Assembly (NCBI GenBank): GCA_043754535.1
Contig: JAYUUN010000040.1
Coordinates: 1 to 48,949 of the forward strand
From: Chloroflexota bacterium
GTDB taxonomy: Bacteria; Chloroflexota; Chloroflexia; QHBQ01
Length of the DNA: 48,949 bases
Direction: 5' to 3'
Positions 4,481 through 48,783 of the stretch are shown piece after piece. The notes beneath the pieces are model-generated. The model had not been told where the DNA came from and ran no database searches. It saw only the letters and a list, made by a program, of their open reading frames with translations. A program made the position numbers and the translations under genes. Within the stretch, counting starts at the first letter, position 1; each line of letters opens with the position of its first letter.

Positions 4481-5968
4481 ATGCAGGCCAAGACGACAGC
4501 GGTAACGGTGGGCGAAGAAGGGCAAAGCAACGACCACCAGCGCAAATGGATCATTCTAGCAACGGTTGCCCTCGGTACCTTCATGGGGACGCTGGACAGC
4601 AGCATCGTCAACATCGCGCTGCCGACTATCCGCCACCAACTGAATGCGGGCGACTCGGTGCAATGGGTGGTACAAGTCTACTTGCTGACGATCACCAGCA
4701 CCTTGCTGATCATGGGTAGGCTGTCCGACCTGCTGGGACGGCGGCGGGTATACGTTGGTGGGTTCGCCCTCTTTACGGTCGCCTCGCTACTCTGCGGCTT
4801 CGCCTGGGACTTGTGGTCGCTGGTCGCCTTCCGTCTGCTGCAAGGGCTGGGCAGCGCGATGATCTTCGCAATTGGCCCGGCCATCATCGCCGACACCTTC
4901 ACGCCACGAGAGCGGGGTCAAGCCCTCGGCTGGGTGGGGACAGTGGTGGCGGCGGGTAGCTCGGCTGGGCCGGTGATCGGCGGTCTCCTGCTTGGTAGCT
5001 TCGGTTGGCCCGCTATCTTCTTCGTCAACGTGCCGGTGGGCATCTTCGCGGTCTGGAGGGCCTGGAAGATCATCCCGGAGGGGGGGACGCACCGTAGCCG
5101 CCGCTTCGACGCGACAGGGGCGGTCTTGTTTGCGCTGGGGGTGATCTGCCTGCTGCTGGCCCTCGACTTCGGTTCGCAGCGGGGCTGGGGCAGCAGCCTG
5201 GTGATCGGTCTGTTTGTTGGTGCGGCGGTGCTGCTCGGCAGCTTCTTTGCCTGGGAGGGGCGGGTGCGCGAGCCGATGCTGAACCTCAGTCTGTTCCGCA
5301 TCTGGCCTTACACGGCGGCTCTGGCAGCAGTGGGCCTCAGCTTCACCGCCAGTGCCGCCAACCTGTTCGTGCTGCCGTTCTACCTGCAAACCATCCTCGG
5401 CTACCCACCAGAGCAGGCAGGCTTCATCCTGCTAGCCGGGCCACTCGCCCTCTTGGTAGTATCGCCGCTCGGTGGACGGCTGGCCGACCGCTTCGGCGCA
5501 CGCTGGGTCGCCAGTGGTGGGTCGATCCTGGTCGCCATCGGCTACTTCCTGCTCGCTGGCCTACAAGCAAGCTGGGTCTGGCAGGATGTAGTCTGGCGGC
5601 TGGTTCTCTTGAGCGTCGGCTTCGGCCTGTTCCAGTCGCCCAACAATGCCTCGGCCCTCAACGCTGCGCCAGTTGCCGAACGTGGCATCGCCAGCAGCAT
5701 GATCCCCTTCATGCGTAACTTCGGCCTCGTGCTAGGCATAGCGGTAGGGGCAGCAGTCTGGTACAGCCAGCGGGCTGTCTACGCCAGTAGCCACGCTCTG
5801 CGCCCAGAGGATACTGCCGCGCAGATTGCAGGGCTGCAAATTGTCTACTATATGCTGACTGGCTTGCTGCTGCTCTCGGCTAGCATCAGCCTCTCACGCG
5901 GCAAGCTGCCCATGCAGGAGGAGCCACCGCTCGCAGTGGAGGGCCAGCCCGCCAGCTTCAGCCACTTA
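4481..5968 (+). CDS. MFS drug:H+ antiporter, DHA2 (EmrB/QacA) family
   Basis: LDSSIVNIALPTI, GRLSDLLGRRR, GPVIGG..WPAIFFVNVPVG; about 14 TM segments; AAGGAG RBS. End given at the in-frame TTA (5966-5968); the standard-code end is 6049, overlapping the ALDH gene by 81 bp. Confidence 0.9.
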
Positions 5969-8371
5969 CTACTCGCCGTAAGGTACCCAAATGTTCTTCA
6001 CCTGGGTCGCTTCGCGCAGGAACTCCTGGCCTTCAGCGTGGCTAGATAGCCAGTCGGTGGCCCGGCCCAGGCTTGTCCAGGTACGCTTCATGTTACCAAC
6101 GCTGGCTAGCTCCACCTGCTTGCTGCCCGCAGCGGTGCCAAAGTACCAAACGCCATCCACATCGTCATGCTCGGCCAGCACCTTCGCCAGCGGCTCGCGT
6201 GGGCCAGTCACAATGTTGACCACCCCAGCGGGCAGGTCGGAGGTGTCGAACACCTGGTAGAGGTCGGTGGCAGAGAGCGGGTGCAGCGGCGAAGGAACGA
6301 CCACCACCGTGTTGCCCATCGCAATTGCGGGGGCGACCAGGGAAACGAAGCCCAGTAGCGGCGCGTCGTCGGGACAAAGGATACCCAGCACCCCGACTGG
6401 CTCATTCATCGCCAGGGTGACATTGCGCGAGGGGGTGGAGTGTACGAGGCCGTCGTACTTGTCGGCCCAGGCTGCGTAGGTGAACAGGCGCGAGATTGCT
6501 GCCTCCACCTCTGCTACGCCGTCGCCGCCAGTCTGCTGGGCGAGGCGGGCAGCAAACTCGGCAGCGCGGACGGCTAGGTTCTCAGCGATGTAGTAGAGTA
6601 CCTGCGCCTTGTTGTGGCCGTAGGCCATTGCCCAGCCCTCAGCTGCGTGGGCCGCCTCAACCGCATTGCGGATGTCCTTGCGGTTGCCTTCGCCCACCAG
6701 CCCAATCTCGCGCCTCCCCGCCCCATAGATCGGCATTGAGTAGCCGCTATCGGGTCGGGCCTGCTTACCACCGATGTACATCTTCGGGGTGCGGTCGATC
6801 ACCGGCAAGGCTGAACGGCCACGCTCTGCTACCCTGCTCCCCCCCACGAGGTCAGCGGGAGAAGCGGGAGACTCGGCAAGGGCTGCTGGCTCTGCGCCAT
6901 TGTCCCGCAGCTTGAGGTACTCCCACAGCCCCTCCTTGCCGCCTTCACGCCCGTAGCCACTCTCACGGTAGCCGCCAAAGCCGCTGGCTGCGTCAAACTG
7001 GTTGGTGCAATTGACCCAGACGGTGCCAGCCTTGATCTGGCGGGCGATGTCCAGCGCGAGGTTGAGGTTGTCGCTCCAGACGCTGGCGGCCAGGCCGTAG
7101 CTGGTGTTGTTCGCCAGGGCGACCGCCTCGGCTGGGGTGCGGAAGCTCATGCTGACCAGCACCGGGCCGAAAATCTCGGTCTGCGCTATCATCGAGGCGG
7201 GCGACACGTCGGTTAGTAGCGTCGGCGGGTAGAAGCTGCCTTCAGTGGGACACGACCAGGAGGGCTGCCACAAGGTCGCGCCCGCAGCCACACCCTGCTG
7301 CACCAGCGCATCGATCTGCTCAAGCTGGCTGGGTGAGACTATCGCGCCAATATCCATTGCCTTGTCGAGCGGCTGACCGACCCGCAGCTTCTCCATGCGG
7401 GCGCGCAGCTTCGCCAGCAGCTTCTGCTCAACGCTCTCCTGCACCAGCAGCCGCGACCCCGCGCAGCAGACCTGCCCCTGGTTGAACCAGATCGCGTCCA
7501 CCACCCCCTCCACCACACTGTCCAGGTCGGCATCGGCGAAGACGACGAAGGGCGACTTACCGCCCAGTTCGAGCGACAGCCGCTTGCCAGTGCCAGCCGT
7601 CTGCTGCCGTAGGGTACGGCCCACCTCGGTCGAGCCAGTGAAGGCGATCTTGGCAACGTCGGGGTGTGCGACGATAGCTGCGCCCGCTGAACCAGCATCG
7701 CCAGTAATGATGTTGACCACGCCAGCAGGCAGGCCCACCTCGCGGCAAATCTCGGCGAAGGCCAGGGCGGTCAGTGGGGTGTAGCGGGCGGGCTTCAGCA
7801 CAACAGTATTGCCCATCGCCAGGGCGGGCGCGATCTTCCAGGCCATCATCATCAGCGGGAAGTTCCAGGGGATGATCTGCCCAACCACGCCGAGCGGGGC
7901 GTAGTCGCGCAGTTCGCTCTCCATCAATTGCGCCCAGCCCGCATAGTAATAGAAGTGGCGGGCAACCAGCGGCACATCAATGTCTCGCGTTTCGCGGATC
8001 GTCTTGCCGTTGTCCAGCGACTCTAGCACGGCTAGCAGGCGCGAGTGCTTCTGTATCTGGCGAGCCAGGGCGTACATCCAGCGGGCGCGGGCGTGGCCCG
8101 GCAAACTGCTCCAATCCTTGAAGGCAGCAGCGGCAGCAGCGACCGCTGCATCCACGTCGGCAGGGTTGGCCGCCGCGATCTTCGCCAGTGGCTTGCCGTT
8201 CGCGGGGTTGGTTGTCTCCAGGTACTTGCCACTCTGCGGCTGTACCCACTCGCCACCGTAGAACAACTCGAACTGGCCGCCATGCTCCTTCAGCCATTCC
8301 ATAGCCGGGTTAGCCGCCTCTGGGGCTGGGCCATATGCCATCGTCTCAAAGATTTCTGCCACGCTAGTCAT
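5969..8371 (-). CDS. Aldehyde dehydrogenase, ALDH16-like (full ALDH plus a second partial Rossmann-type domain)
   Basis: IIPWNFPL, AFTGSTEVG, LELGGKSP, GQVCCAGSRL (catalytic Cys), EIFGPV, then a repeated N-terminal-like domain; 800 aa; downstream of deoC. Confidence 0.93.
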   Translation of the reverse strand: MTSVAEIFETMAYGPAPEAANPAMEWLKEHGGQFELFYGGEWVQPQSGKYLETTNPANGKPLAKIAAANPADVDAAVAAAAAAFKDWSSLPGHARARWMYALARQIQKHSRLLAVLESLDNGKTIRETRDIDVPLVARHFYYYAGWAQLMESELRDYAPLGVVGQIIPWNFPLMMMAWKIAPALAMGNTVVLKPARYTPLTALAFAEICREVGLPAGVVNIITGDAGSAGAAIVAHPDVAKIAFTGSTEVGRTLRQQTAGTGKRLSLELGGKSPFVVFADADLDSVVEGVVDAIWFNQGQVCCAGSRLLVQESVEQKLLAKLRARMEKLRVGQPLDKAMDIGAIVSPSQLEQIDALVQQGVAAGATLWQPSWSCPTEGSFYPPTLLTDVSPASMIAQTEIFGPVLVSMSFRTPAEAVALANNTSYGLAASVWSDNLNLALDIARQIKAGTVWVNCTNQFDAASGFGGYRESGYGREGGKEGLWEYLKLRDNGAEPAALAESPASPADLVGGSRVAERGRSALPVIDRTPKMYIGGKQARPDSGYSMPIYGAGRREIGLVGEGNRKDIRNAVEAAHAAEGWAMAYGHNKAQVLYYIAENLAVRAAEFAARLAQQTGGDGVAEVEAAISRLFTYAAWADKYDGLVHSTPSRNVTLAMNEPVGVLGILCPDDAPLLGFVSLVAPAIAMGNTVVVVPSPLHPLSATDLYQVFDTSDLPAGVVNIVTGPREPLAKVLAEHDDVDGVWYFGTAAGSKQVELASVGNMKRTWTSLGRATDWLSSHAEGQEFLREATQVKNIWVPYGE

Positions 8372-8434
8372 GTCACATATCCTTCTTGATGGGCGGCTCC
8401 ACCATCATTGTACGGGGGTTGAGGGAGGGCGTGC

Positions 8435-8653: not shown

Positions 8654-8686
8654 GTTTGCGCTCCTTTGTTGACCACACCTTGCAGG

Positions 8687-9712: not shown

Positions 9713-9768
9713 AGTTACCCCTCATTCGGCCCTGATTGCTGCTCATGTGGCACTGCTCACTAACCAAC

Positions 9769-9797
9769 ATTTTGACCAATACGGGCGGCTTTGTCAA
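9769..9797 (-). promoter_or_regulatory. Sigma70-type promoter for the deoC operon
   Basis: Minus-strand TTGACA (9797-9792), 17 nt, CAAAAT (9774-9769). Confidence 0.55.
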
Positions 9798-25179: not shown

Positions 25180-27729
25180 TTGAAGCATCGCTTGTTCCTG
25201 CTCGTCCTCGTCGTCAGCCTGCTGCTCCCGACCCTCGCACAGGCGCAGAGCCAGCCAGCCCCCAGCGGCGGCACCTCCACCGCGACGGCCACCGCTGACC
25301 CTCCCAGCGCAACCCCCAGCCCAGCCACGTCCCTGACCGTCACTCCCACCCCGACCGCTACTGCTACCCTGACTGCAACTGCGACTGCGGCTGTGATTGC
25401 CACTGCCACCACCACCGCAACTGTGACTGCCACCGCGACTGCGACAACTGCCCCGCCGCCAACGGCTACGCCCGCCGCCAACCAGTATGACGTGGTGGTA
25501 GTGGGCGGTACCTCGGCGGGCGTGGCGGCTGCGGTCGCCGCAGCCCGGCTGGGGGCGCGGGTTGCCCTGGTCGAGGAGAGCGGCTGGCTGGGCGGCATGG
25601 TCAGTGCGGGCGGCCTCGGCGCAACCGACGGCAACCCGACGGCGATCAGCGGCCTGTTCGAGCAGTTTCGCCTGGCAGTGCGTGCCTACTACCGCAGCCA
25701 GCGCAACAGCGGCCAACTGCAATGCTACAGCCCGCCGCCGCTGCTCGTGGATACCAACTTCGAGCAGCCAACGGTGGCTGGGGCGATGCAGGCTAAAGCG
25801 GGCGGCGGCAGCTATTACAGCGGCCACTCGCTCTACACCTGGTACACCAACACCGCTACTACCCCGCCGACGCACGCCGCCTACCTGCAAGTCTACAACC
25901 TGGTCTGCAATCTTGCGAATGACTACCCCACTGACGGCTTCACCTACGAGCCACTGGTGGCCCAGAACCAGATGAGGCAACTGCTGCAAGGGCTGACCGT
26001 CACTCTGATGCTCAACACAGCTTACAGCGGGGTGATCACTGTGGGTAACAGCGTGCGTGGGGTCTACGTCCTCAGCGAGGGGCAGAGCAGTGCGCTCTAC
26101 GGCAAAGTGGTGATCGATGCGACCAGCCGCGGTGACGTGCTGGCCGACGCTGGCACCCGCTGGCAGGACTATGCCTTTGGCCGCGAACGTAGCAGCACCG
26201 ATAATACCGCCCCGCTCCCTTTGCGTCCACGCACCTTTGACGAACTGGACGCGGGCAAGACCTTCGTGCCGCCCCAGGTTGGCGAGTCGGTCGGTGACGG
26301 TGACTACGGGCTGCAAGCCTACAGCTACCTGATGACCCTCGTCTACCAGCCGAGCCGCAGTATGCCGCACCCCTTTGCCAGTATTGCCGATCCACAGGGG
26401 CGCACTGGCGACCAGAACAGCCTCTATCAGGCCTATGTGCAGCAGTTTAGCACGACCAATGGCGCAAACAGCATCGGCTACTTCAACGACATCTGGTTCA
26501 ACTGGCGGCGGTTGCTGCCGAACAACAAGATCGAACTGAACTATGCCGACATCCCTGGCGGCAACTACCTCTCGGTCGAGCGCGAGGACAACTACCTGAC
26601 CAACCCCGCCAGCCGCTCGTCTATCGAGCAGCAGCACCGCCTCTACGCCCTCAGCTTTGTCTACTGGGCGCGCCAGCGGGTGCCTGCCGCCCAGGGCTGG
26701 CTGCCTACCAACGAGTACGGCACAGCAGACGGCCTGCCACCCTTGCTCTACATCCGCGAGGGTAATCGAATGATCGGTGAATACACCCTCAGCGAGCGCG
26801 ATTACGCCTGCTTCAGCCAGGGGTGCAGCACGGTCAGTCGCTACTTTACCGACAGCATCGCCACCGGCCAGTACGCCTTGGACTCGCATACTGTGCGCTT
26901 GATCGCTGACGGCAGCGGCGGGCAGTTCGCAGATGGCAATATGTGGTTGGGCAACAGCCAGCCCTACCAGGTGCCATACCGCGCAATCGTACCGCTCAGG
27001 TTGGATGGTCTGTTGGTGCCGCTGGCGGCCTCGGCCACCCACCTCGGCTTTGGCGCGTTGCGGATGGAGCCAGTGCGGGCGGCAATGGGTCAGGCGGCGG
27101 GGGTCGCGGCGGCGCAAGCGGCGGCAGCCAACATCCAGCCACGGGCAGTCAACCTGCGGGCGGTGCAGCGCGAACTGATCCGCCAGAAGGCAGCTACCTA
27201 CACCTACATTGATGTGCCAAATAGTTACTGGGCCTGGACTGCGATCAGTTGGCTCAATGCGCGTGGGGTAGTGCAGGGAACTGGGCCGAACCTGTTTGCA
27301 CCCAACGCCCAGGTGCGGCGGGCTGAGCTAGCCAAGATGCTGACCCAGGCGCAGGGCTGGCCGTTGCTCAACCCTGCTACCGCCACCTTCCGCGATGTGT
27401 CAGCCGGCAACTTTCTCTACCGCTACGTGGAGACTGCCTACGCTCATGGGGTGATCAGCGGCTACAGCGACGGCAACTTCCAGCCCTACGCCAGCGTAAC
27501 GCGGGAGCAGATGGCGAAGATGCTAGCCGCTGCGGCTGGCTTCGGCCCCCAACAGCCAGCCAACCCCAGCTTCAGCGACGTGTCGCCCAGCAATATCTTC
27601 TACGGCTGGGTAGAGGCCGCCCGACTGCACGGCCTGATGCAAGGGACGAGCGCGACCACCTTCTCGCCGCGCGGCACTCTGACGCGGGCGCAGGCGGCCC
27701 AGGCAGTCTTCAACCTGCTAGGCGAGTTA
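25180..27729 (+). CDS. Secreted SLH-anchored FAD-dependent oxidoreductase (FAD_oxidored family)
   Basis: Signal peptide, Thr-rich linker, YDVVVVGGTSAGVAAAVAAA, IDATSRGD, YIREGNRM, YQVPYRAIVP, SATHLGFGALRMEP, three SLH repeats. End given at TTA 27727-27729; the standard-code end is 27825. Confidence 0.9.
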
Positions 27730-29295
27730 GCCCTTAGCCAACTCGCGGCGGAACAGCAGCCAGTTGATCACGAAGAAGATCAGCCCCATCGTTGTCAGTG
27801 CGCCGATCACGTAGTCGGTCGGTAGCTGGCCGCGCAGCATGACCTGCTGGAAGCCCTGGATGCCGTGAGTGATCGGCAGCCCCTGCGCTCCATACTGCAC
27901 GTACTGGTTGAAGCTGCTGAGCGAGAGGAAGAAGCCGCTGAAGAAGACAGAGGTGAGCAGCACCAGCATCGACAACTGCACCGCCTGCGACTCGGTCTGC
28001 GAGATCAGGCTGATGAAGAAGCCCAGGCCCAGGCTGGCGAAGACCAGCGCGAGGGCAGTCAGGCTGAACCAGAGGGGGTCGCCCTTGAACGGCACGCCCA
28101 GCAGCGGGCTAACTAGCGCAGCGACCAGGGCAGCAGCGACCACCGCCACGAACAGGATGTAGGCAACGTACTTGCTGACCAGGATTTCGGTGGCGCGGAT
28201 CGGGGCGACGCGGAACAGTTCGAGCGTGCCAATTGTCCGCTCACGCACTAGCGAGAGGGCCGCGAAGGTGACAGCGATGTGTTGGAGCAGCAAGGCGAGG
28301 ACGGCAGGGGTGTAGTAGTTGATGAAGTTAATCTCAACGCCGTTGGGGTTGTCCTCCTTGCTGGCCTCATTCTTGACGATGGCGCGGAAGGGGGAGACGA
28401 GGACACCAGGGGCGATGTTGGTGATCTGCCCAGTCGTCGCTTCCAGGGTAGCGAGGTCTTCATCTACCTGCTTGAGGCGTTGCACCTGCTGCTCCCGACT
28501 CGCCTGGCCGCGCAGGGCATCGCTGCGGATCGCTTGCACGTTGTCGTTCAGGCGGCGGATGGCAGTCTGCGCCTTGTTGATGCTGTCTACCTTCTGCTGC
28601 CCTGCTGGGCTGATCGGTAGTGTTGCTAGCTGGTCGTTGTTCACGGCACCGCCTGCGACGGCGAGAACTACCAGGACGGAGTTGCTGCTGGTCAGCAGGT
28701 CGCCACTCTCCTTCGTCACCGCCTGCACGTCGTTGGCCTGCAAGCCCACCTGCAAGCGGTTGACCGCCTGGCGCAACTGGCCCACCTGCCCCTGCAAGTC
28801 GGTGAGGCCCGCCTGCCCCTGCTTAAAGCCTGCTTCGAGGATGCGCTTGTTCAGTTCATTAGAATAGGCATAGGTAAGGAAGTAGACGATGTTGATCTTC
28901 ACCGGGTCAATCTCATTGACGTTGAGCCGCAATTCGGCTTGCTTGCCGCCCAGGATGTCGCTGTAGGGGTCGGTAGGGATCACCGCCACCGCATCTACGC
29001 GGCGGTCATGTAGTTCACTCATCGCCCGGCCCAGGTCTTCCGTCACTTCACGCACGTCCAGTTGCTCAACGGCAAACTGCTTCTTGATCTCCGCGCTGCG
29101 AGACTGCGTCCCTGGCGGCCCCACGATGATCGTAGTCAGGCTCTGCTGCTTGCTGACATAGCCGATACCGAAGATAAAGAGGATGAGGAAGGGGCCAAGT
29201 ACCAGGGTAAAGACTAGGCGCAACTGCCGCCGCACCTCGGCTACCTCCTTGCCCAAAAACGCGCTGAGGCGCACCAGCATCTTGACTAGCGGCAT
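27727..29295 (-). CDS. ABC-2 type exporter permease with a large extracytoplasmic helical domain
   Basis: FLGKEVAEVRR, SLVRERTIGTLELFRVAP, 1+5 TM topology. Confidence 0.9.
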   Translation of the reverse strand: MPLVKMLVRLSAFLGKEVAEVRRQLRLVFTLVLGPFLILFIFGIGYVSKQQSLTTIIVGPPGTQSRSAEIKKQFAVEQLDVREVTEDLGRAMSELHDRRVDAVAVIPTDPYSDILGGKQAELRLNVNEIDPVKINIVYFLTYAYSNELNKRILEAGFKQGQAGLTDLQGQVGQLRQAVNRLQVGLQANDVQAVTKESGDLLTSSNSVLVVLAVAGGAVNNDQLATLPISPAGQQKVDSINKAQTAIRRLNDNVQAIRSDALRGQASREQQVQRLKQVDEDLATLEATTGQITNIAPGVLVSPFRAIVKNEASKEDNPNGVEINFINYYTPAVLALLLQHIAVTFAALSLVRERTIGTLELFRVAPIRATEILVSKYVAYILFVAVVAAALVAALVSPLLGVPFKGDPLWFSLTALALVFASLGLGFFISLISQTESQAVQLSMLVLLTSVFFSGFFLSLSSFNQYVQYGAQGLPITHGIQGFQQVMLRGQLPTDYVIGALTTMGLIFFVINWLLFRRELAKG

Positions 29296-40768: not shown

Positions 40769-42379
40769 ATGCGAGATGAGAAGCGTTTGCCCATCCTACC
40801 GCTGTTGGCCCTTGCCCTCGGCCTTACCATGCTGGTTAGTGGGCTGCTCATTGCTGGCTCAACCCTGGCGGCCCCTGCAAACCACAGTCTGCACCAGCCG
40901 CAGGGGGGTCTACCCTGCGACCAACGCCAGTTTGATGTGGATGCCAGCAACCACCCAGCCAACCAATCGATCACCGCTACCGTCGCGATCCAGAACTTCT
41001 GCTTTACCACCCGTGTGCTAACGATCACGGTTGGTGATACCGCCGCCTGGGACAACTACGACCAGATCGGCCACAATGCTTCAACGCTGAACAGCGGCAG
41101 CATCCCGCCAGAACCATTCCAGACCGCCTATGCCATCTCACCGACTAATCGCATTGTTAGCCGCACCTTCACCCTGGCCGGGGTCTACGACTACCTCTGC
41201 GACCCGCACCCGTTCATGACTGCGCGGATTGTGGTGCTGCCTGCGCCAGTGGCAATAAACATCCAGGGCTTCACCTTTGCCCCCCAGGTGCTGACCGTTA
41301 CGGTTGGCACGAGGGTGCAGTGGACGAACCGTGATGCTGCCAGCCACACCGTCAACTCGACCAGCCCACCGGGGGTGCTGAACTCTGGCAATCTTGCCCA
41401 GAACGCGATCTACAGCTACACATTCAGCACGGCTGGCACCTACGATTACCAGTGCAATATCCACACCGGCATGACTGGTCGTGTAGTCGTGCTTGGCCTG
41501 CCGCCCACCACAACCAGCACACCGAGTGCCATCCCCAGCCCGACTGCAACCACCCCCGGCCCACCAACGCGCACCTATACGCCCACGCCAACCTTCTCAG
41601 CCACCACCTGCCCGCCCTCGGTCTGCTGTGCTGGCGACAGCAACGACCCCCAGTGTACGACCACGCCCGGCCCACCAACGCGCACTTATACACCCACGCC
41701 GACCTTCTCAGCCACCACCTGCCCGCCCTCGGTCTGCTGTGCTGGCGATAGCAACCACCTCCAGTGTACGACCACGCCCGGCCCGCCAACGCGCACTTAC
41801 ACGCCCACGCCCACATCCACCCCTTGCCAACGCAGCTTCCCTGACGTGCCTGGCAGCTACATCTTCTACGACGACATCATCTTCCTCGCCTGTCGTGGGG
41901 TGATCAATGGCTATGCGGACGGTAACTTCAGGCCAAACGGCAACACAACGCGGGGTGAAGTGACGAAAATCATCGTCAGCGGCTTTGGCATCCCGCTGGT
42001 AACGCCGCCCGCCACGCCGCGCTTCGTGGACGTGCCAGCCAATCACCCCTTCTACCTCTACGTTGAGACGCTGGTTGGCAGGCAAGTGGTCAGCGGCTTC
42101 CCCGACGGCAACTTCCGCCCAAATGGGCTGGTGACGCGGGCGCAGCTAGCCAAAATCGTGGTAGGGGCTGGGAGCTACACCCTGGCAACCCCCACTGTAC
42201 CGACCTTCAGCGACGTGCCGAGCAGCAACGTCTTCTGGCAATACATCGAAACGCTGAACAGCAGGGCGATCATCAGCGGTGCGGCTTGTGGCAGCGGCCT
42301 CTGCTATCGCCCCAACGACAGCATCAAGCGCGGTGAACTCAGCAAGGTTGTGCATAGGGCGATAGACTCGACCCCTTTA
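40769..42379 (+). CDS. SLH-anchored double cupredoxin, paralog 2
   Basis: GHNA..YLCDPHPFM and SHTV..YQCNIHTGM; Cys-containing tandem linker; three SLH repeats; HRAIDSTP-TTA aligns with the paralog's stop. The standard-code end is 42532. Confidence 0.9.
41549..41815 (+). repeat. 111-bp (37-aa) tandem repeat, about 2.4 copies
   Basis: TTPGPPTRTYTPTPTFSATTCPPSVCCAGDSNxxQCT units start at 41549, 41660 and 41771. Confidence 0.93.
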
Positions 42380-42419: not shown

Positions 42420-42451
42420 AAAAGACCCACTTCGTGAGCAGTGGGTCTTTT
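42420..42451. terminator. Bidirectional intrinsic terminator
   Basis: AAAAGACCCACT-TCGTGAGC-AGTGGGTCTTTT: perfect 12-bp inverted repeat with A and T tracts, between convergent genes. Confidence 0.85.
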
Positions 42452-42461
42452 GGCCTGGAGT

Positions 42462-43234: not shown

Positions 43235-45034
43235 TCAGTCCTCCTTGCTGACAGGTAGGGTGAAAGCAAATCTTGCGCCGCCGCTAGCCGCTTCTTCCAC
43301 CCAGATGCTACCACCGAGGGCGTTGATGATCTCGCGGGCGATGTAGAGGCCCAAACCCACCCCCTTCGCCTCGCGTACCATGCGCCCCTCCAGGCGGGTG
43401 AAGGGGGTGAAGATGCGCTCTCGCTCCTCCGCTGGCACGCCTTCACCCTCGTCGCTGACGCTGAACAGGACGTGACTAGCCCGCCGTTCAGCGGCCAGGG
43501 TGATCTCGCCCGCCCCATACTTCAGCGAGTTCTCCACCAGGTTGGTCAACACCTGCTCAATCCGCTGCTCATCGCCAATCACCACGGGCAGTTGCTCCTC
43601 GCCAGCCACTTCATCGCCCTTTGGTGGGTAAGGGGCAACGGTCAGCCTGCGCTCTGGCCGCTCGGCCACGAGGACACGCAGGCGGGTGGCGACCCGGTTG
43701 AGCAGGCTGTAGGGGTCGAGTGGCTCGCGGTTGATGTCCAGCTTACCCGCTTGCAAGCGAGTGACGGTCATCAAGTTCTCCACCATCTTGCTCAAGCGGT
43801 CGCTCTCCTGACTAACGATCTCCAACTGCTGGCGGGCGGTTGCGTTCTCCTCGCCGATGGTGTCGCCCAGCAGCCCTGCATAGCCCTTGATCACCGCAAT
43901 CGGGGTTTGCAACTCGTGGCTGACGACGGAGAGGAAGGTGGCCTGCATGGCCTCTGCTTCCTTGCGGGCGCGGATATCGTGCAGGGTGAGCGTAGCACCC
44001 AGTACGGCACCGTCGTTGCCGCGGATCAGCCCGCAACTGGCTTCCACTGGCACCCGCCGCCCGTCGTGGGCCAAGAGGGTGAGTTCCTGCACGGCGACAT
44101 AGCTGCTGTCGTTCAGGGTAGCGGTTAGCTGCTCGGTCAGCCAGCCGTCACCGACGTGCTGGCCGCGAATGGCTGGCAGGTTGCTGCTCTGCCCGCTGTC
44201 CCAGCGCGGCAAGTCGAAGGATGGTGAGTAGTTGCTGCCACTCTGCTGGCTGTTGGCTGCGGTGTGGAAGTCAAAGAGTTGCTCGGCATCCTGCCCCCAG
44301 GCCAGCGGCCCCGTCCAGCCGGTCAGCCGTTCGAGGGCGCGATTGAGGCCGATGATGCGCCGCTGCGGGTCTACCACCAGGATCGCCTCGCTGGTTTGCT
44401 GGATCACCTCCTCCAACCAGTGCTTCTCGTTGAGGATACGCTGCAAGAGGCGAGTATTCTGGGCGACGATGTCCACCTGATCTACAATAATCTGGTAGAT
44501 GTCGGGGCGGTTGAAGATATCCTCGCGGTCGCCACCCTCGCCTGGTTCGAGCAGGCAGAGCAGGCCCACCATACCGTCGCCGCCGCGTAGGGGGATGGCA
44601 ACCAGGTGGAGGTCGTGGCCCTTGAGCCGGGCTACGCCGCTAACTGCCTCCGCTGGGCTAAGGGTGAGGCCAAGCGTATGCTGGGCCTGCTGTTCGCCTG
44701 CCTCGCCTTGCAACTCTGGCATACTGCGGAGGCTGGCGGCCAGGCTGCGTGCCTCTCCCTCGCCCAACCCGACGCTGGCGGTGTAGAATGGACGATCCCC
44801 CTCGTAGAGAGCGACCATCCCCGCCTGGCTGCCAGCCGCATGAACCACCTTGTTGATCATCGCCTCCAGCATACTGCGCGGGTCGGGCGTGCTACCGTCC
44901 GCGTTGACTGTCTGGTTGGTATGCACCTCGTCGGGGTCGCGGGCAGGCTGGCTAACCCGCTGTGAGGATGTCTCGCTACTTGGTTGGGCCGCCGCTTCGC
45001 TGATATTGCACTGGAACTTCTTCTTCTTGAACAT
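43235..45034 (-). CDS. GAF/PAS sensor histidine kinase
   Basis: PAS segment (EAILVVD..NRALERLTGW), SHELQTPI, NLVENSLKY, DEGEG, GVGLGL. Confidence 0.92.
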   Translation of the reverse strand: MFKKKKFQCNISEAAAQPSSETSSQRVSQPARDPDEVHTNQTVNADGSTPDPRSMLEAMINKVVHAAGSQAGMVALYEGDRPFYTASVGLGEGEARSLAASLRSMPELQGEAGEQQAQHTLGLTLSPAEAVSGVARLKGHDLHLVAIPLRGGDGMVGLLCLLEPGEGGDREDIFNRPDIYQIIVDQVDIVAQNTRLLQRILNEKHWLEEVIQQTSEAILVVDPQRRIIGLNRALERLTGWTGPLAWGQDAEQLFDFHTAANSQQSGSNYSPSFDLPRWDSGQSSNLPAIRGQHVGDGWLTEQLTATLNDSSYVAVQELTLLAHDGRRVPVEASCGLIRGNDGAVLGATLTLHDIRARKEAEAMQATFLSVVSHELQTPIAVIKGYAGLLGDTIGEENATARQQLEIVSQESDRLSKMVENLMTVTRLQAGKLDINREPLDPYSLLNRVATRLRVLVAERPERRLTVAPYPPKGDEVAGEEQLPVVIGDEQRIEQVLTNLVENSLKYGAGEITLAAERRASHVLFSVSDEGEGVPAEERERIFTPFTRLEGRMVREAKGVGLGLYIAREIINALGGSIWVEEAASGGARFAFTLPVSKED

Positions 45035-45048
45035 CTTGTAACTCGTTT

Positions 45049-46023
45049 CTAAGCCCGTTTCGGCTCGTCGCCGAGCGGCAGCGAGGGTAGTGGGGTAACT
45101 GCGCTCTGTTTGTTCATCTTCCGCTGCTTGCCTACTAGCTGGGGGGCGAACTCGGCCAGCAACATCCCGCCAAGGATCAGCCCACAGCCGAACAGTTGCC
45201 GCCCGCTCAACAACTCGCCGCCCAGTAGCCAGGCAAAGGCTGCCGCCGCCACCGGCTCAAGGGTGAAGATCAGAGCCACGTGCGTCGGGCTGGTGGCCCG
45301 CTGTGCTACCGCCTGCAACACCTGCGCCAGCGCGCTAGCTACCAGGCCCATAAAGACTGCCGCCAGTAGCACATTCGGCGGTAGCAGCCAGCCCACCCCC
45401 ACCGGCAACTCGAAAGCCACCGAACCCAGCAAGCTAAGTGCGCCTGCCACCGCCATCGCCACCAGCGACAGCCGCAGAGCGTCTGCTTCTGCTGCATAGC
45501 GGCTAACCAGCACGATCTGCATGGCGAAGCAGGCTGCCGAAGCAATCTGGAGCCAGTCGCCAATCCCCACCGTGAAGCCGTCCTGCACGCTAAGCAGAGC
45601 CAGGCCGACAACCGCTACCACCACCCCGACGACAGGCCAGACCCCAGGCCGCTGGCCCAGCAGCAGGTAGGCAAAGAGCGGCACCAGCACGACCGACAGC
45701 CCTGTAATGAAGCCCGCATTGCTGGCGGTAGTGTACTGCAAGCCGACAGTCTGCAAGATGAAGCCCAGCCAGTAGGCAAGGCCGATCAGCAGGCCACCAG
45801 CCAACTCCCGTCGCCGCCAGCCAGCCCACCTGCCCGTGAACAGCACGATCAGCAGCAAGGCAGCCGCACCACTGCCAAAGCGTACGCTGAGAAAGAGCAG
45901 CGGCGCAGTCTCCCTTAGCGCGTCCTTGATCAGGATGAAGGTTGCGCCCCAGATCAGCACTACGCCGACCAGCGATAGGTCTGCGGCTAGCTGCTTGTTT
46001 GCTCTTGCTGTTTGCTCTTGCAT
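45049..46023 (-). CDS. DMT/EamA family transporter
   Basis: IWGATF, GLQYTTASNAGFITG, LIFTLEPV; about 10 TM. Confidence 0.92.
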   Translation of the reverse strand: MQEQTARANKQLAADLSLVGVVLIWGATFILIKDALRETAPLLFLSVRFGSGAAALLLIVLFTGRWAGWRRRELAGGLLIGLAYWLGFILQTVGLQYTTASNAGFITGLSVVLVPLFAYLLLGQRPGVWPVVGVVVAVVGLALLSVQDGFTVGIGDWLQIASAACFAMQIVLVSRYAAEADALRLSLVAMAVAGALSLLGSVAFELPVGVGWLLPPNVLLAAVFMGLVASALAQVLQAVAQRATSPTHVALIFTLEPVAAAAFAWLLGGELLSGRQLFGCGLILGGMLLAEFAPQLVGKQRKMNKQSAVTPLPSLPLGDEPKRA

Positions 46024-46025
46024 TG

Positions 46026-46904
46026 CTACTTGATCGCCGTCAGGCCGAAGGCATCCTGCCGCTTTGTCACCTGCTTGAAGCCCGCATCTTGCAGCCGTTG
46101 CAGCACGCCACGCACCACCCGCCCGCCAGAGTTGCTCTCCAGGTCGCCAATATAGTGAAAGAGTTTGCCGCCGCGCTTCAGCACCCGGTACAGTTGTTTG
46201 TAGAACGCGCCAGAGTAGAGTTCCCCACCCAGGCTGAAGGTGGGTGGGTCGTGGATGATGCGGCTGAAGCGGTCATCCGCCAGCTTCGGCACTTCCTCAT
46301 AACTGTCGCCCACCACCTGCTGGATGCGCGGGTTGCTGAACAACTCTCGCGACCAGGGGTTGAGGCGGGCCACCTGCAAGCTGGCGGGGTCTAGCTCGAT
46401 GGTCAGCACGCGGCTCACCGCCCCGCGCGCCGCCTCAATCGCAGTGTAGCCCAGACCGGTGGCGGTATCCAGCACCTCACCGCTGAGGGGAGCTATCGTC
46501 TTGACCTTGCGGCGGGTGTCTTCCAGCGGGTTGGTATCCTTGATGCGGTGCATAACGATGCCGCTAACCAGCATGGTGGGGGCCGACTCGGTGGCGATCA
46601 GGGTGCGTAGCCAGTTGGTTTGGCCGCTGAAGATCATGATCTCCCTCGCCGTGCCACCTTCGATGGTGTAACACTTGTAGAAGCCCTTGCGCCCACCCTC
46701 GCTCACCTTCACTACTTCATCCCAGGGCAGATGCTGGCCGTCAGGTAGCAAAACCCCAGCCTCGTCCAGCTCTACCGCCACCCGCGTTTGGTTGAGGTCG
46801 AGCGAGAGAGTAGTGTGGGTGGTGCCAACCCGCTTCGCTTGTAGCAGAGGGAACACCTGCACGTAGGAGAGGATGGGCGGTTGGCTTTGGCTGCTTTGTT
46901 CCAT
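46026..46904 (-). CDS. Class I SAM-dependent methyltransferase (COG2521-like)
   Basis: VLDTATGLGYTAI, IELDP, NPWSREL, IIHDPPTFSLGGELYS. Confidence 0.88.
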   Translation of the reverse strand: MEQSSQSQPPILSYVQVFPLLQAKRVGTTHTTLSLDLNQTRVAVELDEAGVLLPDGQHLPWDEVVKVSEGGRKGFYKCYTIEGGTAREIMIFSGQTNWLRTLIATESAPTMLVSGIVMHRIKDTNPLEDTRRKVKTIAPLSGEVLDTATGLGYTAIEAARGAVSRVLTIELDPASLQVARLNPWSRELFSNPRIQQVVGDSYEEVPKLADDRFSRIIHDPPTFSLGGELYSGAFYKQLYRVLKRGGKLFHYIGDLESNSGGRVVRGVLQRLQDAGFKQVTKRQDAFGLTAIK

Positions 46905-46911
46905 AAGGTAA

Positions 46912-46940
46912 AGTTTAGTTTGCCAGGGCTGGAATGTCAA
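46912..46940 (-). promoter_or_regulatory. Sigma70 promoter of the methyltransferase operon (probably leaderless)
   Basis: Minus-strand TTGACA (46940-46935), 17 nt, TAAACT (46917-46912); ATG 7 nt downstream; no SD. Confidence 0.7.
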
Positions 46941-46953
46941 GCCGAAACGCTAA

Positions 46954-46982
46954 TTGACCTCTCACGCAGCGGTCGTTATAAT
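46954..46982 (+). promoter_or_regulatory. Sigma70 promoter of iscS
   Basis: TTGACC (46954-46959), 17 nt, TATAAT (46977-46982). Confidence 0.75.
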
Positions 46983-47036
46983 GATAGCAGGAAACAGCTA
47001 CCGATCTCCATAGGCATTGCGCTAGAACAGGGTGAA

Positions 47037-48242
47037 ATGATGGATGTTTTGCTCAACAGCGGCTCGCGCCGCCTCAACAGCGGCTCGCGCCGCCTCTACT
47101 TCGACCACGCCGCGACCACGCCCCTCGCCCCAGAGGTGCTAGCCGCCATGCTACCCTACTTCAATGCCAGCTATGGCAACCCCAGCAGCATCCACGCTGA
47201 GGGGCGGCTGGCACACGAAGGGTTGGAAGCGGCGCGGCGGCAGGTGGCAGCGGTGCTGCATTGCCGCCCGCAGGAAGTGATCTTTACCAGCGGCGGCACA
47301 GAGAGCGACAACCTCGCGCTCAAGGGGGTGGCTCTAGCTCACGAAGGTGGTCACATCATCACCAGCGCAGCAGAGCATCACGCGGTGCTGCACAGCGCAG
47401 AGTACCTTGCCCACCTCGGCTTCAAGGTGACATATCTACTAGTAGACAGATTTGGCATGGTCAGCCCCGACGATGTGGCAGCAGCGATCCAGCCCGACAC
47501 GCGGCTGATCAGCATCATGTACGCTAACAACGAGGTGGGGACGATCAACCCAATCCCGCAGATTGCAGCGGTGGCGCAGCAGGCTGCTGTGCCGTTCCAC
47601 AGCGATGCAGTGCAGGCGGGTGGCAGCCTCGACCTTGATGTGGAGCGGCTGGGGGTAGACTTGCTCTCGCTCTCGGCCCACAAGTTCTACGGGCCAAAGG
47701 GGGTGGGTGTGCTGTACGTCCGCGGTGGCAACCACTTGCTCTACCAACAGAGTGGCGGCTCGCAGGAGAGCAAGCGGCGGGCTGGCACGGAGAATGTGGC
47801 AGGGATCGTCGGCCTCGCCACCGCCCTAACCATCGCCGAGAGCAAGCGGGAGGTTGAAGCGGCCCGTCTGCTTGGCTTGCGCGAGCGGCTAATCGGGGGA
47901 GTGCTGAGCAGCATCCCCGACGCGATCCTCAACGGCCACCCTGTGGAGCGGCTACCTGGCAATGCCAACTTCTGCCTGCCCGACGTGGAGGCAGAGACGC
48001 TGTTGCTACGCCTCGATCTGCTGGGCATCGCGGCTAGCTCGGCCTCGGCTTGCACCAGCGGGGCGGTCGAACCAAGCCATGTGCTGCACGCAATGGGTAT
48101 CCCCGACGCACTGGCAGTGGGTAGCCTGCGCTTGAGCCTCGGCGCAAGCAACACGGAGGCCGACATAGACTATGTTCTCGCCAAACTGCCCGCCGTGGTC
48201 AACAGGCTACAGAGCCTGAAGTTGCACGAACGAAGTAGCTAA
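47037..48242 (+). CDS. iscS: Cysteine desulfurase (IscS/NifS group I)
   Basis: YFDHAATTP, GNPSSIH, FTSGGTESDN, HSDAVQ, SAHKFYGPKG (PLP Lys), RAGTEN, SASACTSG. Confidence 0.93.
   Translation: MMDVLLNSGSRRLNSGSRRLYFDHAATTPLAPEVLAAMLPYFNASYGNPSSIHAEGRLAHEGLEAARRQVAAVLHCRPQEVIFTSGGTESDNLALKGVALAHEGGHIITSAAEHHAVLHSAEYLAHLGFKVTYLLVDRFGMVSPDDVAAAIQPDTRLISIMYANNEVGTINPIPQIAAVAQQAAVPFHSDAVQAGGSLDLDVERLGVDLLSLSAHKFYGPKGVGVLYVRGGNHLLYQQSGGSQESKRRAGTENVAGIVGLATALTIAESKREVEAARLLGLRERLIGGVLSSIPDAILNGHPVERLPGNANFCLPDVEAETLLLRLDLLGIAASSASACTSGAVEPSHVLHAMGIPDALAVGSLRLSLGASNTEADIDYVLAKLPAVVNRLQSLKLHERSS
47052..47093 (+). repeat. Perfect 21-bp tandem duplication (LNSGSRR x2)
   Basis: CTCAACAGCGGCTCGCGCCGC twice, head to tail. 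Confidence 0.95.
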
Positions 48243-48246
48243 CCAA

Positions 48247-48783
48247 TAACTCCAACGTAGGCGTGTGCTGGCCTACTTCGTTGTGGATCAACTTGACACT
48301 GTGTGGTAGCAGCGGCATGATCGCGCCAATGCACTCGCGCACTGCGTTCGGGCTGCCGGGCAGGTTGACGATCAACGTGCCACCGCGCTGCACTGCCACG
48401 CTGCGCGAAAGATAGCTGAGGATGGTGTACTGCGCCGTTCCCACCCGCATCAGTTCGCCGTAGCCGGGTACGATACGCTGGCCGACTGCCAGCGTTGCTT
48501 CGGGGGTCACATCGCGGGCGGTCAGGCCGGTGCCACCCGTAGTGAGGATCAGGTCTAGTTGTAGATCGTCGGCCCAGCGGATCAGGGTCGCCTCGATCTG
48601 TGCCTGCTCGTCTGGCACAACGGCGTACTGGGCGATAACCGCACCCGCCAGCCCCGCTACGATCTCGCGCTGGGCCTGCTGACCGCTAAGGTCATCGTTG
48701 TTTGGGTCGCTATGCCTGCTGTCGCTGACCGTCAACACGCCCACCTTGATCTGCTCGTCTCCACCATGCTCGTGCTTCATCAC
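48247..48783 (-). CDS. mog: Molybdopterin adenylyltransferase MogA/MoaB
   Basis: VLTVSD, DLSG, VVPDE, TTGGTGLTARDVTPEAT, SRSVA, NLPGSP. End given at TTA (48249-48247); the standard-code end is 48199, overlapping iscS. Confidence 0.92.

What the first reader, a model, noticed from the sequence alone, without database searches (positions are those of the whole stretch)
5966..48249. Candidate new bacterial genetic code: TTA (UUA) behaves as a fourth stop codon
Seen: under table 11, all four convergent gene pairs overlap tail to tail (81, 99, 71 and 44 bp). In each pair the over-running gene has an in-frame TTA where the protein should end: MFS 5966, FAD-SLH 27727, cupredoxin-2 42377, mog 48249-48247. 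Reading TTA as stop gives a 0-bp gap, a 3-bp shared stop, an 82-bp gap containing a terminator, and a 4-bp gap. I found no other in-frame TTA in any gene. TAA, TAG and TGA all still end genes here. Known: UUA is a stop in Thraustochytrium mitochondria (table 23); I know of no bacterial case. Inference: UUA is reassigned from Leu to stop, or is unassigned and handled by ribosome rescue, after loss of tRNA-Leu(UAA).
Basis: partly seen in the sequence, partly recalled or inferred. Interest (0 to 1): 0.97.

Follow-up and report, generated by a model that had tools for sequence, protein, structure and literature searches.

The report
Leucine codon TTA ends bacterial genes
In this uncultured Chloroflexia bacterium and its family the leucine codon TTA is never used inside genes and instead sits exactly where related genes have ordinary stop codons, so it acts as a fourth stop signal, a change of the genetic code so far published only for mitochondria and plastids.

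Summary
All four in-frame TTAs are where stated and remove all four convergent overlaps. In the central thirds of long ORFs TTA occurs 26 times in 277,415 codons, against 5.6 and 3.3 per 1000 in the other two frames. 185 of 2372 ORFs carry a TTA near the 3' end, followed by a non-coding tail. In 110 ortholog pairs with a sister genus no TTA lies deep inside an alignment, and in 21 pairs TTA sits where the partner has TAA, TAG or TGA. The essential argS gene ends ...KQM-TTA at the last profile position. All five genomes of the family show this. Two sister families use TTA as Leu and keep tRNA-Leu(UAA). This genus has no tRNA(UAA). The sister genus keeps a divergent one, which is unexplained. 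Which factor reads UUA is not shown: RF2 is the best candidate, but none of its substitutions is unique. I found no paper on a bacterial case. This scan had noted TTA stops before, in uncultured phages; the look-ups showed none for a cellular genome.

The parts
4481..5968 (+). MFS transporter gene ending in TTA (5966-5968)
   Evidence: Pfam MFS_1. TTA is in frame and directly abuts the TAG stop (5969-5971) of the convergent gene. Orthologs in the sister genus align only to residues 480-485 of the 522-residue table-11 ORF.
5969..6049 (+). Untranslated tail of the table-11 MFS ORF; it lies inside the 3' end of the convergent aldehyde dehydrogenase gene (5969-8371, minus strand)
   Evidence: No homolog aligns to this tail.
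25180..27729 (+). FAD-dependent oxidoreductase with three SLH domains, ending in TTA (27727-27729). The start codon is uncertain.
   Evidence: Pfam FAD_oxidored and SLH. TTA is in frame. Orthologs align to residues 847-852 and TTA is codon 850.
27727..27729 (.). Shared stop triplet: TTA on the plus strand and TAA of the ABC-2 permease gene (27727-29295) on the minus strand
   Evidence: Genome-wide, 12 of the 24 convergent overlaps that TTA resolves are such shared triplets.
40769..42379 (+). Cupredoxin/SLH protein gene ending in TTA (42377-42379)
   Evidence: Pfam Copper-bind and SLH. TTA is in frame. SLH paralogs end at about query residues 532-540 and TTA is codon 537.
42420..42451 (.). Hairpin terminator between the convergent genes, inside what table 11 would read as coding
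   Evidence: 12-bp stem followed by UUUU, -21.8 kcal/mol, z -3.1. Sequence. The consensus scan gave one minus-strand site at 42439-42425.
48247..48783 (-). mog/MoaB-type molybdopterin-binding protein gene ending in TTA (48249-48247). The start codon is uncertain.
   Evidence: Pfam MoCF_biosynth 16-161. TTA is in frame. In relatives the protein ends at the aligned place, with TGA in G002 and TTA in G004 at the same position.
48199..48246 (-). Untranslated tail of the table-11 mog ORF; bases 48199-48242 overlap the 3' end of the convergent aminotransferase gene (46881-48242)
   Evidence: The tail differs from G001 at several residues, while the whole 194-residue table-11 ORF is 97% identical.

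Best explanation
In this Chloroflexia family (five genomes in two genera) UUA no longer codes for leucine. It ends translation alongside UAA, UAG and UGA, and closes about 8% of genes in this genome.

Shown:
- TTA is purged from coding bodies.
- It sits at the exact position of orthologous canonical stops.
- What follows it is non-coding: the next gene's ribosome-binding site and start codon, a terminator, or the end of a convergent gene.
- This genus has no tRNA with anticodon UAA.

Inferred: a class-I release factor reads UUA, most likely RF2. The base after TTA stops (G over T, far over C and A) resembles the context of UGA, which only RF2 reads, and not that of UAG. RF2's codon-reading loop carries a family-specific combination of changes (GQHRMVRISPYDSQHRRQTSF), while RF1's loop is canonical.

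The likely history is that TTA codons disappeared and UUA termination arose in the family's ancestor. The sister genus still holds a divergent tRNA(UAA) with a weakened 4-bp anticodon stem, and this genus has lost it.
For: Depletion in coding bodies:
- 26 TTA in 277,415 central codons, against 5.6 and 3.3 per 1000 in the +1 and +2 frames; CTA is 10.4 per 1000.
- Only 13 of 614 in-frame TTAs have coding signal on both sides, against 6807 of 10,814 for CTA.
- TTA is the only codon with a stop-like position profile: 9.8% in the middle 60% of ORFs (median codon 58.8%) and 26.5% in the last tenth.

Internal cases are gene junctions:
- 0 of 18 ORFs tested have a Pfam domain across the TTA. It separates unrelated products such as def | Exo_endo_phos, AsnC | LysE, thiolase | hexapeptide transferase, APH | RNase PH, HD | ScpA, Mrr | LplA and GT-C | GH35.
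- GGAGG-like sites and ATG follow the TTA within a few codons.

Gene ends:
- 185 of 2372 ORFs have a TTA in the 3' half. Tails of at least 10 codons score -0.17 against +0.23 upstream. Tail length (median 17 codons) matches the distance from a canonical stop to the next in-frame stop (median 21).
- In 110 ortholog pairs (83,428 aligned codons) 5 TTAs lie inside alignments, all within 2-15 codons of an alignment end. In 21 pairs TTA is the first of the four triplets after the alignment, mostly at +1 to +4 codons. The mean tail mismatch falls from 18.9 to 6.1 codons.
- argS ends ...APKQM then TTA, with the NCBIfam TIGR00456 profile ending at 569/569 on that M.
- Of 54 convergent overlaps of at least 20 bp, TTA resolves 24 to 4 bp or less. 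Control codons do so only by cutting a median of 155-512 bp.

Stop-like context: AAG precedes 15.6% of TTA stops (canonical stops 8.3%, overall use 2.4%). The +4 base is G .51, T .29, C .12, A .08, closest to TGA.

Phylogeny:
- Central in-frame TTA is 1/17,897 in G001, 4/14,626 in G002, 1/14,853 in G003 and 0/6,520 in G004.
- The two sister families have 2.9-3.6 and 1.4 per 1000, and 0.29 at 71% GC.
- All five sister-family genomes tested have tRNA-Leu(UAA). G000 and G001 have none.
Against: - No protein or ribosome data exist; everything is comparative.
- The three genomes of the sister genus keep a conserved tRNA with anticodon UAA, A73 and a long variable arm, with one compensatory stem change. 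It should compete with termination there.
- The genomes are 83-89% complete drafts, and this one also lacks tRNA-Ala(UGC), Thr(GGU) and Pro(CGG), so absence of a tRNA is not proof. It is supported by the syntenic place being intact without it.
- No RF2 change is unique. RRQTSF is common in Actinomycetota and Oscillospiraceae, which use TTA as an ordinary rare sense codon. HRM is common in low-GC contigs that use TTA freely. SPY with RRQ occurs in two Streptomyces.
- The serine substitution tied to UUA stops in organelles is not present.
- 11 of 185 TTAs are followed at once by a canonical stop (5.9% against 3.1% after canonical stops), so a few may be last sense codons or have a back-up stop.
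- Of the 54 convergent overlaps, 27 still overlap by at least 20 bp with TTA as stop.
Confidence: 0.82

Rival explanations
1. UUA is merely unassigned: no tRNA and no release factor reads it. Ribosomes stall there and are freed by a rescue path such as tmRNA, an Arf-type factor or peptidyl-tRNA drop-off.
For: No tRNA(UAA) in this genus. tmRNA is present. No unique release-factor change was found.
Against: About 8% of genes, including argS and def, end only in TTA, with no in-frame canonical stop for a median of 17 codons. tmRNA rescue would tag these proteins for degradation. No ArfB-type small RF-1-domain protein was found: the genome has only two PF00472 matches, RF1 and RF2 (genome 89% complete). 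The -1 and +4 context is that of real stops. Known unassigned codons are avoided rather than used at gene ends (recalled from the M. capricolum CGG work cited in PMC8629427).
Confidence: 0.11
2. A hungry UUA codon makes the ribosome slip +1 onto an overlapping TAG or TAA (TTAG, TTAA), so a normal stop ends the protein, as was once proposed for AGA/AGG in human mitochondria.
For: 80 of 135 TTA stops are followed by G (69) or A (11), which puts a stop in the +1 frame.
Against: 55 of 135 are followed by T or C, and for these the next +1-frame stop is a median of 18 codons away, no closer than in controls (19-22). Three of the four window sites are TTAC, TTAC and TTAT. TTAA is depleted rather than favoured (8% against 15% for in-frame leader TTAs).
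Confidence: 0.04
3. Table 11 is right: TTA is a very rare leucine codon (as in Streptomyces), and the C-terminal extensions, gene fusions and convergent overlaps are real.
For: The sister genus has a tRNA(UAA). High-GC lineages can have very rare TTA.
Against: Tails are non-coding by codon use and do not align between genera. Orthologs have canonical stops at the TTA position. RBS plus ATG follows the TTA in the 'fusions'. A hairpin terminator lies inside one tail. No TTA lies at a conserved internal position in 83,428 aligned codons. Other rare codons show no 3' enrichment.
Confidence: 0.02
4. Artefact of binning, assembly or contamination.
For: All genomes of the family are draft assemblies of 132 to about 1000 contigs.
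Against: The same pattern holds across ORFs drawn from all 132 contigs and in five separate assemblies of two genera. Contamination is 0.7%.
Confidence: 0.01

Closest known systems
   Same: The same codon goes from Leu to stop while UAA, UAG and UGA (where still stops) are kept. It is recognised in the same way: the codon occurs only at the 3' ends defined by homologs. An RF2-type factor is the suspected reader.
   Different: Those are organelle genomes with a few dozen genes. Here it is a free-living bacterium with a 3.9-Mb genome in which 185 of 2372 long ORFs end in TTA. The organellar cases share a substitution of an invariant serine ('Ser204') in RF2. Here no residue that is invariant in the sister families is changed except L to M (twice), H to Q and R to K. 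That paper calls the plastid case the first sense-to-stop change outside mitochondria.
UUA/UUG = stop in mitochondria of Marsupiomonadales and Pseudoscourfieldia/Pycnococcus green algae, read by a modified mtRF1a (PMC12574857, passages read; PMC6821328, search listing only)
   Same: A Leu-to-stop change of a UUR codon.
   Different: There both UUA and UUG are stops and RF1 is modified. Here TTG stays a common Leu codon (about 15 per 1000) and RF1's PxT loop is canonical.
Rare TTA codon with the bldA tRNA-Leu(UAA) in Streptomyces (PMC10732093, search listing; otherwise recalled)
   Same: Extreme rarity of TTA in a GC-rich genome. RF2 has the same RRQTSF variant.
   Different: In the nine Actinomycetota loci with RRQ-type RF2 and GC below 0.67 that I pooled, in-frame TTA lies inside ORFs (50% in the middle span, no 3' enrichment), and a tRNA reads it as Leu in Streptomyces. 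Here it lies at gene ends only, and this genus has no such tRNA.
Unassigned codons in bacteria (CGG in Mycoplasma capricolum; CGG in some Clostridia, PMC8629427, passages read)
   Same: The codon vanishes from coding regions and the cognate tRNA is missing.
   Different: Those codons are simply avoided. Here the codon is used positively as the only terminator of about one gene in twelve.
TTA-terminated genes in uncultured phages, noted earlier in this scan (unpublished AI notes)
   Same: The same signature: TTA never inside genes, and at the place of relatives' stops. One note describes a phage of about 60% GC with an 'unidentified host'.
   Different: Those are phages. This is the first cellular lineage with the signature that my look-ups showed. 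No direct link was made: 3 of about 70 CRISPR spacers were tested and gave 0 hits.

Membership tests
Genetic code with UUA as a stop codon (table-23-like) | UUA absent from conserved sense positions | tested here: met
   26 in 277,415 central codons. 5 in 83,428 aligned ortholog codons, all within 15 codons of an alignment end. 0 of 18 ORFs with a Pfam domain across a TTA.
Genetic code with UUA as a stop codon (table-23-like) | UUA occurs where homologs have their termination codon | tested here: met
   21 of 110 ortholog pairs. mog: TTA in G004 against TGA in G002. argS: the profile ends one codon before TTA. Window genes.
Genetic code with UUA as a stop codon (table-23-like) | No tRNA able to read UUA | tested here: inconclusive
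   Not found in G000 or G001, which are 89% and 87% complete, and the syntenic site is intact without it. G002, G003 and G004 of the same family each hold a conserved divergent tRNA(UAA).
Genetic code with UUA as a stop codon (table-23-like) | RF2 with the substituted invariant serine ('Ser204') reported for both organellar UUA-stop lineages | tested here: not met
   No serine that is invariant in the 22 sister-family RF2s is changed in the family. The fixed differences are L to M (twice), H to Q and R to K. The paper's numbering could not be mapped exactly.
Genetic code with UUA as a stop codon (table-23-like) | Polypeptide release at UUA shown by protein or ribosome data | not testable with these tools
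   This needs C-terminal proteomics, Ribo-seq or an in vitro release assay.
Unassigned codon (codon-capture intermediate) | The codon is avoided everywhere in reading frames, gene ends included | tested here: not met
   185 of 2372 ORFs carry it at the functional 3' end, with stop-like -1 and +4 context.
bldA-type rare-leucine-codon regulation | A tRNA-Leu(UAA) is present and TTA sits at Leu positions inside a subset of genes | tested here: not met
   No tRNA(UAA) in G000. No internal TTA at aligned positions.
Termination by frameshift onto an overlapping stop (hungry-codon model) | A canonical stop lies in the shifted frame at every site | tested here: not met
   55 of 135 sites are TTAT or TTAC, with the next +1-frame stop a median of 18 codons away, as in controls.

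The most novel reading that the evidence does not exclude
A whole family of free-living Chloroflexia uses a four-stop genetic code in which UUA is a true stop codon read by a release factor. It would be the first sense-to-stop reassignment in a cellular, non-organellar genome. The sister genus, which still carries a weakened tRNA(UAA), would be caught in the ambiguous intermediate stage. The family, or lineages like it, would also supply the missing host code for the many uncultured phages that end genes in TTA.
Probability: 0.6. Interest if true: 0.96.

Novelty: new variant of a known kind. Interest (0 to 1): 0.93.

Why it matters
- **Code evolution.** Sense-to-stop changes have been reported only for mitochondria and, in 2025, one plastid lineage (PMC12574857). 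They were thought feasible only in genomes with few genes. A bacterium with several thousand genes that made this change would show the code is less frozen than assumed. It would also give a pair of sister genera, one with and one without the tRNA, in which to study the order of events.
[quoted passage not shown] More cases may be hidden.
- **Annotation.** Table 11 mis-annotates about 8% of this family's long ORFs, giving false C-terminal extensions, false fusions and false overlaps. One such 'fusion' was read as real earlier in this scan (e1-3585524).
- **Phages.** It offers a host-side explanation for the TTA-terminated phages seen in this scan.
- **Termination.** It gives a natural test case for how a bacterial release factor could accept a pyrimidine at stop-codon position 2.

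Tried and rejected
- **RF2 His-to-Gln as the cause.** I first took the change RRHTSF to RRQTSF, fixed in all five family genomes and in none of 22 sister-family genomes, as the likely determinant. 78 of the 80 fetched loci carry it in RF2. Those lineages place TTA like an ordinary rare sense codon. Rejected as sufficient.
- **RF2 Leu-to-Met (HRMVR).** It was unique among 99 other RF2s. Only one locus (L368) carries the family's full motif. Rejected as sufficient.
- **Extra release factor.** Only two PF00472 matches in the genome, and exactly two class-I factors in each of 31 genomes.
- **RF1.** Five family-fixed differences against 10 sister-family sequences, none in the PxT loop. One extracted sequence (G016) was a wrong ORF and was dropped.
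- **+1 slip onto TAG/TAA.** Rejected as the general mechanism.
- **'tRNA-Pyl(CUA)' call** on C31:4032-4124. It does not fold better than shuffles (z +1.4) and lies beside a CRISPR array. Taken as a false positive.
- **Link to phages.** 3 of about 70 CRISPR spacers gave 0 exact hits in viral contigs. No Terminase_6N in the five family genomes. No look-alike of the sister genus's tRNA(UAA) in earlier notes. This leaves the link open and does not refute it.
- **tRNA loss in place.** The tandem tRNA-Gly(GCC)-tRNA-Leu(UAA) of 4 of 5 sister-family genomes is a lone tRNA-Gly with its own terminator in G000. The flanking genes are not syntenic, so a deletion in place could not be shown.
- **Filters.** The 58 of 168 ortholog pairs that failed my coding-score filter (mostly antisense frames) were dropped before the counts. 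Unfiltered counts are: 12 TTAs inside alignments on the G000 side and 24 on the relatives' side.

Full report
**The observation in the window.** The window is contig C40 of a 3.87-Mb, 132-contig draft genome with 61.4% G+C. Earlier notes of this scan place it in an uncultured Chloroflexia lineage.

From the ORF list the four convergent pairs overlap by 81, 99, 71 and 44 bp under table 11. They are the only convergent junctions in the window. Reading TTA as a stop gives a 0-bp gap, a shared TTA/TAA triplet, an 82-bp gap and a 4-bp gap.

The 82-bp gap holds a 12-bp hairpin followed by UUUU (-21.8 kcal/mol, z -3.1). The simple terminator scan reported only a weaker minus-strand site there.

In 57 coding-like frames of the window (18,375 codons) I found eight in-frame TTAs:
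- three of the four reported ones (the fourth ORF fell below my score filter);
- four that lie upstream of the likely start (for 21489 the real start is ATG 21517 behind AAGGGGG);
- one in an antisense frame.

Homologs end where the TTAs are:

| Gene | Homologs align to | TTA codon |
|---|---|---|
| mog | residues 166-178 | 179 |
| MFS transporter | 480-485 | 496 |
| FAD-SLH oxidoreductase | 847-852 | 850 |
| cupredoxin-SLH (SLH paralogs) | about 532-540, many with a canonical stop right there | 537 |

For mog, genome G004 has TTA exactly where G002 has TGA.

**Genome-wide depletion.** I took 2372 stop-to-stop ORFs of at least 200 codons with a coding-type GC pattern. TTA occurs 614 times, about 0.6 per 1000 codons, fewer than the TGA triplets that close these ORFs. 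CTA occurs 10,814 times.

In the central thirds of ORFs of at least 300 codons there are 26 TTAs in 277,415 codons. The same triplet occurs at 5.6 and 3.3 per 1000 in the other two frames. Only 13 of 614 TTAs have coding signal on both sides, against 6807 of 10,814 CTAs and 1729 of 3523 ATAs.

TTA is the only one of the 61 sense codons with a stop-like position profile. Of its occurrences, 9.8% fall in the middle 60% of ORFs (the median codon has 58.8%), 60.6% in the first fifth (leaders upstream of real starts) and 26.5% in the last tenth (about 10% for the next-lowest codons listed).

**The 'internal' TTAs are gene junctions.** The 13 cases with coding on both sides mostly show a GGAGG-like site and an ATG a few codons after the TTA. 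I scanned 18 ORFs with mid-ORF TTAs against Pfam. In none does a domain span the TTA. The TTA falls between products that are separate genes elsewhere:
- peptide deformylase | Exo_endo_phos
- AsnC | LysE
- thiolase | hexapeptide transferase
- APH | RNase PH
- HD | ScpA
- Mrr | LplA
- TPR | amine oxidase
- SDR | TldD | TldD
- GT-C | GH35

In genome G003 the ortholog of its first half also carries TTA at that place and reaches a canonical stop six codons later. So I read it as two genes.

**Gene ends.** 185 of 2372 ORFs (7.8%) have a TTA in the 3' half.
- Tails of at least 10 codons score -0.17 on my codon-usage log-ratio, against +0.23 just upstream. 90 of 112 such tails score below 0.1. The 12 that score 0.2 or more include the in-frame next genes.
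- Tail length (median 17 codons) matches the distance from a canonical stop to the next in-frame canonical stop (median 21).
- With TTA counted, stop use is TAG 44%, TGA 28%, TAA 20% and TTA 8%.
- Named examples include the essential argS. The NCBIfam equivalog TIGR00456 (423 bits, cut-off 262) reaches its last position, 569/569, at residue 724. The DNA reads ...AAG CAG ATG TTA G, that is ...KQM then TTA.
- In four other named families the profile ends 4 to 8 codons before the TTA.
- Of 54 convergent ORF pairs that overlap by at least 20 bp, TTA as stop reduces 24 to 4 bp or less, 12 of them to a shared TTA/TAA triplet. Ten control codons 'resolve' overlaps only by cutting back a median of 155-512 bp. 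27 overlaps of at least 20 bp remain.

**Orthologous stops.** I fetched about 240 kb from three genomes of the sister genus and compared their ORFs with those of G000. After a coding filter, 110 of 168 pairs remained, with 83,428 aligned codons.

Five TTAs lie inside alignments, all within 2 to 15 codons of an alignment end. In 21 pairs TTA is the first of the four triplets after the alignment in one or both partners, mostly at +1 to +4 codons. The partner has TAG (10 pairs), TAA (6), TGA (3) or TTA (2).

The mean difference in tail length between partners falls from 18.9 codons under table 11 to 6.1.

**Stop-like context.** AAG (Lys) precedes 15.6% of TTA stops. It precedes 8.3% of canonical stops and makes up 2.4% of all codons.

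| Triplet | G at +4 | T at +4 | C at +4 | A at +4 |
|---|---|---|---|---|
| TTA stops | .51 | .29 | .12 | .08 |
| TGA | .39 | .24 | .16 | .21 |
| TAG | .21 | .15 | .50 | .14 |

TTA stops are closest to TGA (chi-square 16) and far from TAG (chi-square 99).

**Distribution.** The search tool groups the relatives into the window's own family (five genomes in two genera) and two sister families of the same order.

| Genome | Group | Central in-frame TTA |
|---|---|---|
| G001 | own family | 1 in 17,897 codons |
| G002 | own family | 4 in 14,626 |
| G003 | own family | 1 in 14,853 |
| G004 | own family | 0 in 6,520 |
| G005 | sister family | 3.6 per 1000 |
| G009 | sister family | 2.9 per 1000 |
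| G008 | sister family | 1.4 per 1000 |
| G006 (71% GC) | sister family | 0.29 per 1000 |

With a stricter filter the family's relatives show only two mid-ORF TTAs, both junctions of genes that are separate in G000. 7 of 72 ORFs in G001 and 18 of 150 in the sister genus have a 3' TTA with a non-coding tail. No claim here rests on the three unpublished genomes (G007, G012, G015), which appear only in tallies.

**tRNAs.** ARAGORN finds 46 tRNA calls in G000, with Leu anticodons CAA, CAG, UAG and GAG but not UAA. Ala(UGC), Thr(GGU) and Pro(CGG) are also missing, so the draft is incomplete.

A tRNA-Leu covariance model finds tRNA-Leu(UAA) in all five sister-family genomes tested. In four of them it lies right after tRNA-Gly(GCC). 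In G000 that tRNA-Gly is followed by a terminator. G000 and G001 have no tRNA(UAA).

Against expectation, G002, G003 and G004 each hold a tRNA with anticodon UAA. Its features:
- It is only about 61% identical to the sister families' tRNA-Leu(UAA).
- It has A73 and a long variable arm, so it looks Leu-like.
- Its anticodon stem has a C31-A39 mismatch and a G-U pair, which leaves 4 bp.
- It is far better conserved than its flanks.
- It shows one compensatory stem change.

The syntenic place in G000 (upstream of a cysS-like gene on C57) is intact and has no tRNA. So the TTA pattern predates loss of the tRNA. What that tRNA does in the sister genus is unexplained.

**Release factors.** G000 has two RF-1-domain genes, RF1 and RF2, and every one of 31 genomes has exactly two class-I factors. 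RF1's loop (PAT...GRIHTST) is canonical.

RF2 reads GQHRMVRISPYDSQHRRQTSF in all five family genomes, against ...HRLVR.SP[FY]D...RRHTSF in 22 sister-family genomes. By my recollection of RF2 structures, the His replaced by Gln is the residue that stacks on stop-codon base 2.

No single change is diagnostic:
- RRQTSF is widespread in Actinomycetota and Oscillospiraceae, where TTA behaves as an ordinary rare sense codon.
- HRM is common in low-GC metagenome contigs that use TTA freely.
- SPY with RRQ occurs in two Streptomyces.
- The serine substitution shared by the two organellar UUA-stop lineages (PMC12574857) is absent.

RF2 remains the best candidate because of the +4 context and the unique combination of changes, but this is inference.

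**Rivals.**
- A +1 slip onto TTAG or TTAA cannot be general. 55 of 135 sites are TTAT or TTAC, with no nearby +1-frame stop (median 18 codons against 19-22 in controls), and TTAA is depleted.
- Pure stalling with rescue would cost the cell about 8% of its proteins, argS and def among them. No ArfB-type protein was found.
- Ordinary rare-codon use is contradicted by the non-coding, non-conserved tails and by the orthologous stops.

**What is known.** Searches of the paper library found no bacterial UUA or TTA stop. The phrase 'sense-to-stop' occurs in six papers, none on bacteria.
- The Codetta screen of 250,000 genomes does not mention TTA or UUA, and its authors state that it cannot detect sense-to-stop changes.
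- The KACI preprint says the same of itself and only raises a possible CGA stop in two archaeal assemblies.
- PMC12574857 (passages read) describes UUA stops in labyrinthulean mitochondria and peDinoflagellate plastids. It calls the latter the first sense-to-stop case outside mitochondria.
- Supplements were not consulted.

Within this scan, TTA stops were noted before in uncultured phages (114 notes in at least 87 genomes; the notes shown were mostly on phages), including one of about 60% GC with an 'unidentified host'. The look-ups showed no such note for a cellular genome. I could not link those phages to this family.

Noticed in passing
The G003 ortholog of the first half also has TTA there, then a canonical stop 6 codons later. 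It is most likely two genes.
   Followed up: partly
L167:1502-1585 (G002), L171:1379-1461 (G003), L172:1497-1580 (G004): The sister genus keeps a conserved, divergent tRNA with anticodon UAA. It has a GGGGGTA acceptor stem, A73, a long variable arm, and an anticodon stem with a C31-A39 mismatch and a G-U pair. Its role in a lineage that ends genes in TTA is unexplained.
   Followed up: partly
whole genome G000: TAG is the commonest stop (1049 of 2187 canonical-stop ORFs), and half of the TAG stops are followed by C. That is an unusual preference for a 61% GC bacterium.
   Followed up: no
G000 contigs C27:57-1853, C50:43116-44834, C62:32758-33654, C31:4297-5044, C112:8435-8781: Five CRISPR arrays with 37-nt repeats and about 70 spacers. 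Three spacers were tried against viral contigs without a hit.
   Followed up: partly
G000 contig C31:4032-4124: ARAGORN calls a 93-nt 'tRNA-Pyl(CUA)' just upstream of a CRISPR array. It folds no better than shuffled sequence (z +1.4), so it is probably a false call.
   Followed up: partly
G000 contig C81:29237-32803 (minus strand; locus L300): A B3/4 domain (residues 575-729) and a complete tyrosyl-tRNA synthetase (823-1183) lie in one frame with no TAA, TAG, TGA or TTA between them. It may be a real fusion.
   Followed up: no
loci L174-L253 (species genomes): The RF2 variant RRQTSF (Gln in place of the conserved His) is widespread in Actinomycetota and Oscillospiraceae, lineages where TTA is rare. 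Whether this variant weakly reads UUA and helps to drive TTA rarity is an open thought.
   Followed up: partly
whole genome G000; in the window at 27727-29: Twelve convergent gene pairs share one triplet as the stop of both genes, TTA on one strand and TAA on the other. This compact arrangement is possible only in this code.
   Followed up: yes
window 40769-42379 and relatives: There is a very large family of SLH-domain surface proteins: 85 matches to the SLH part in G001 and 129 in G004.
   Followed up: no
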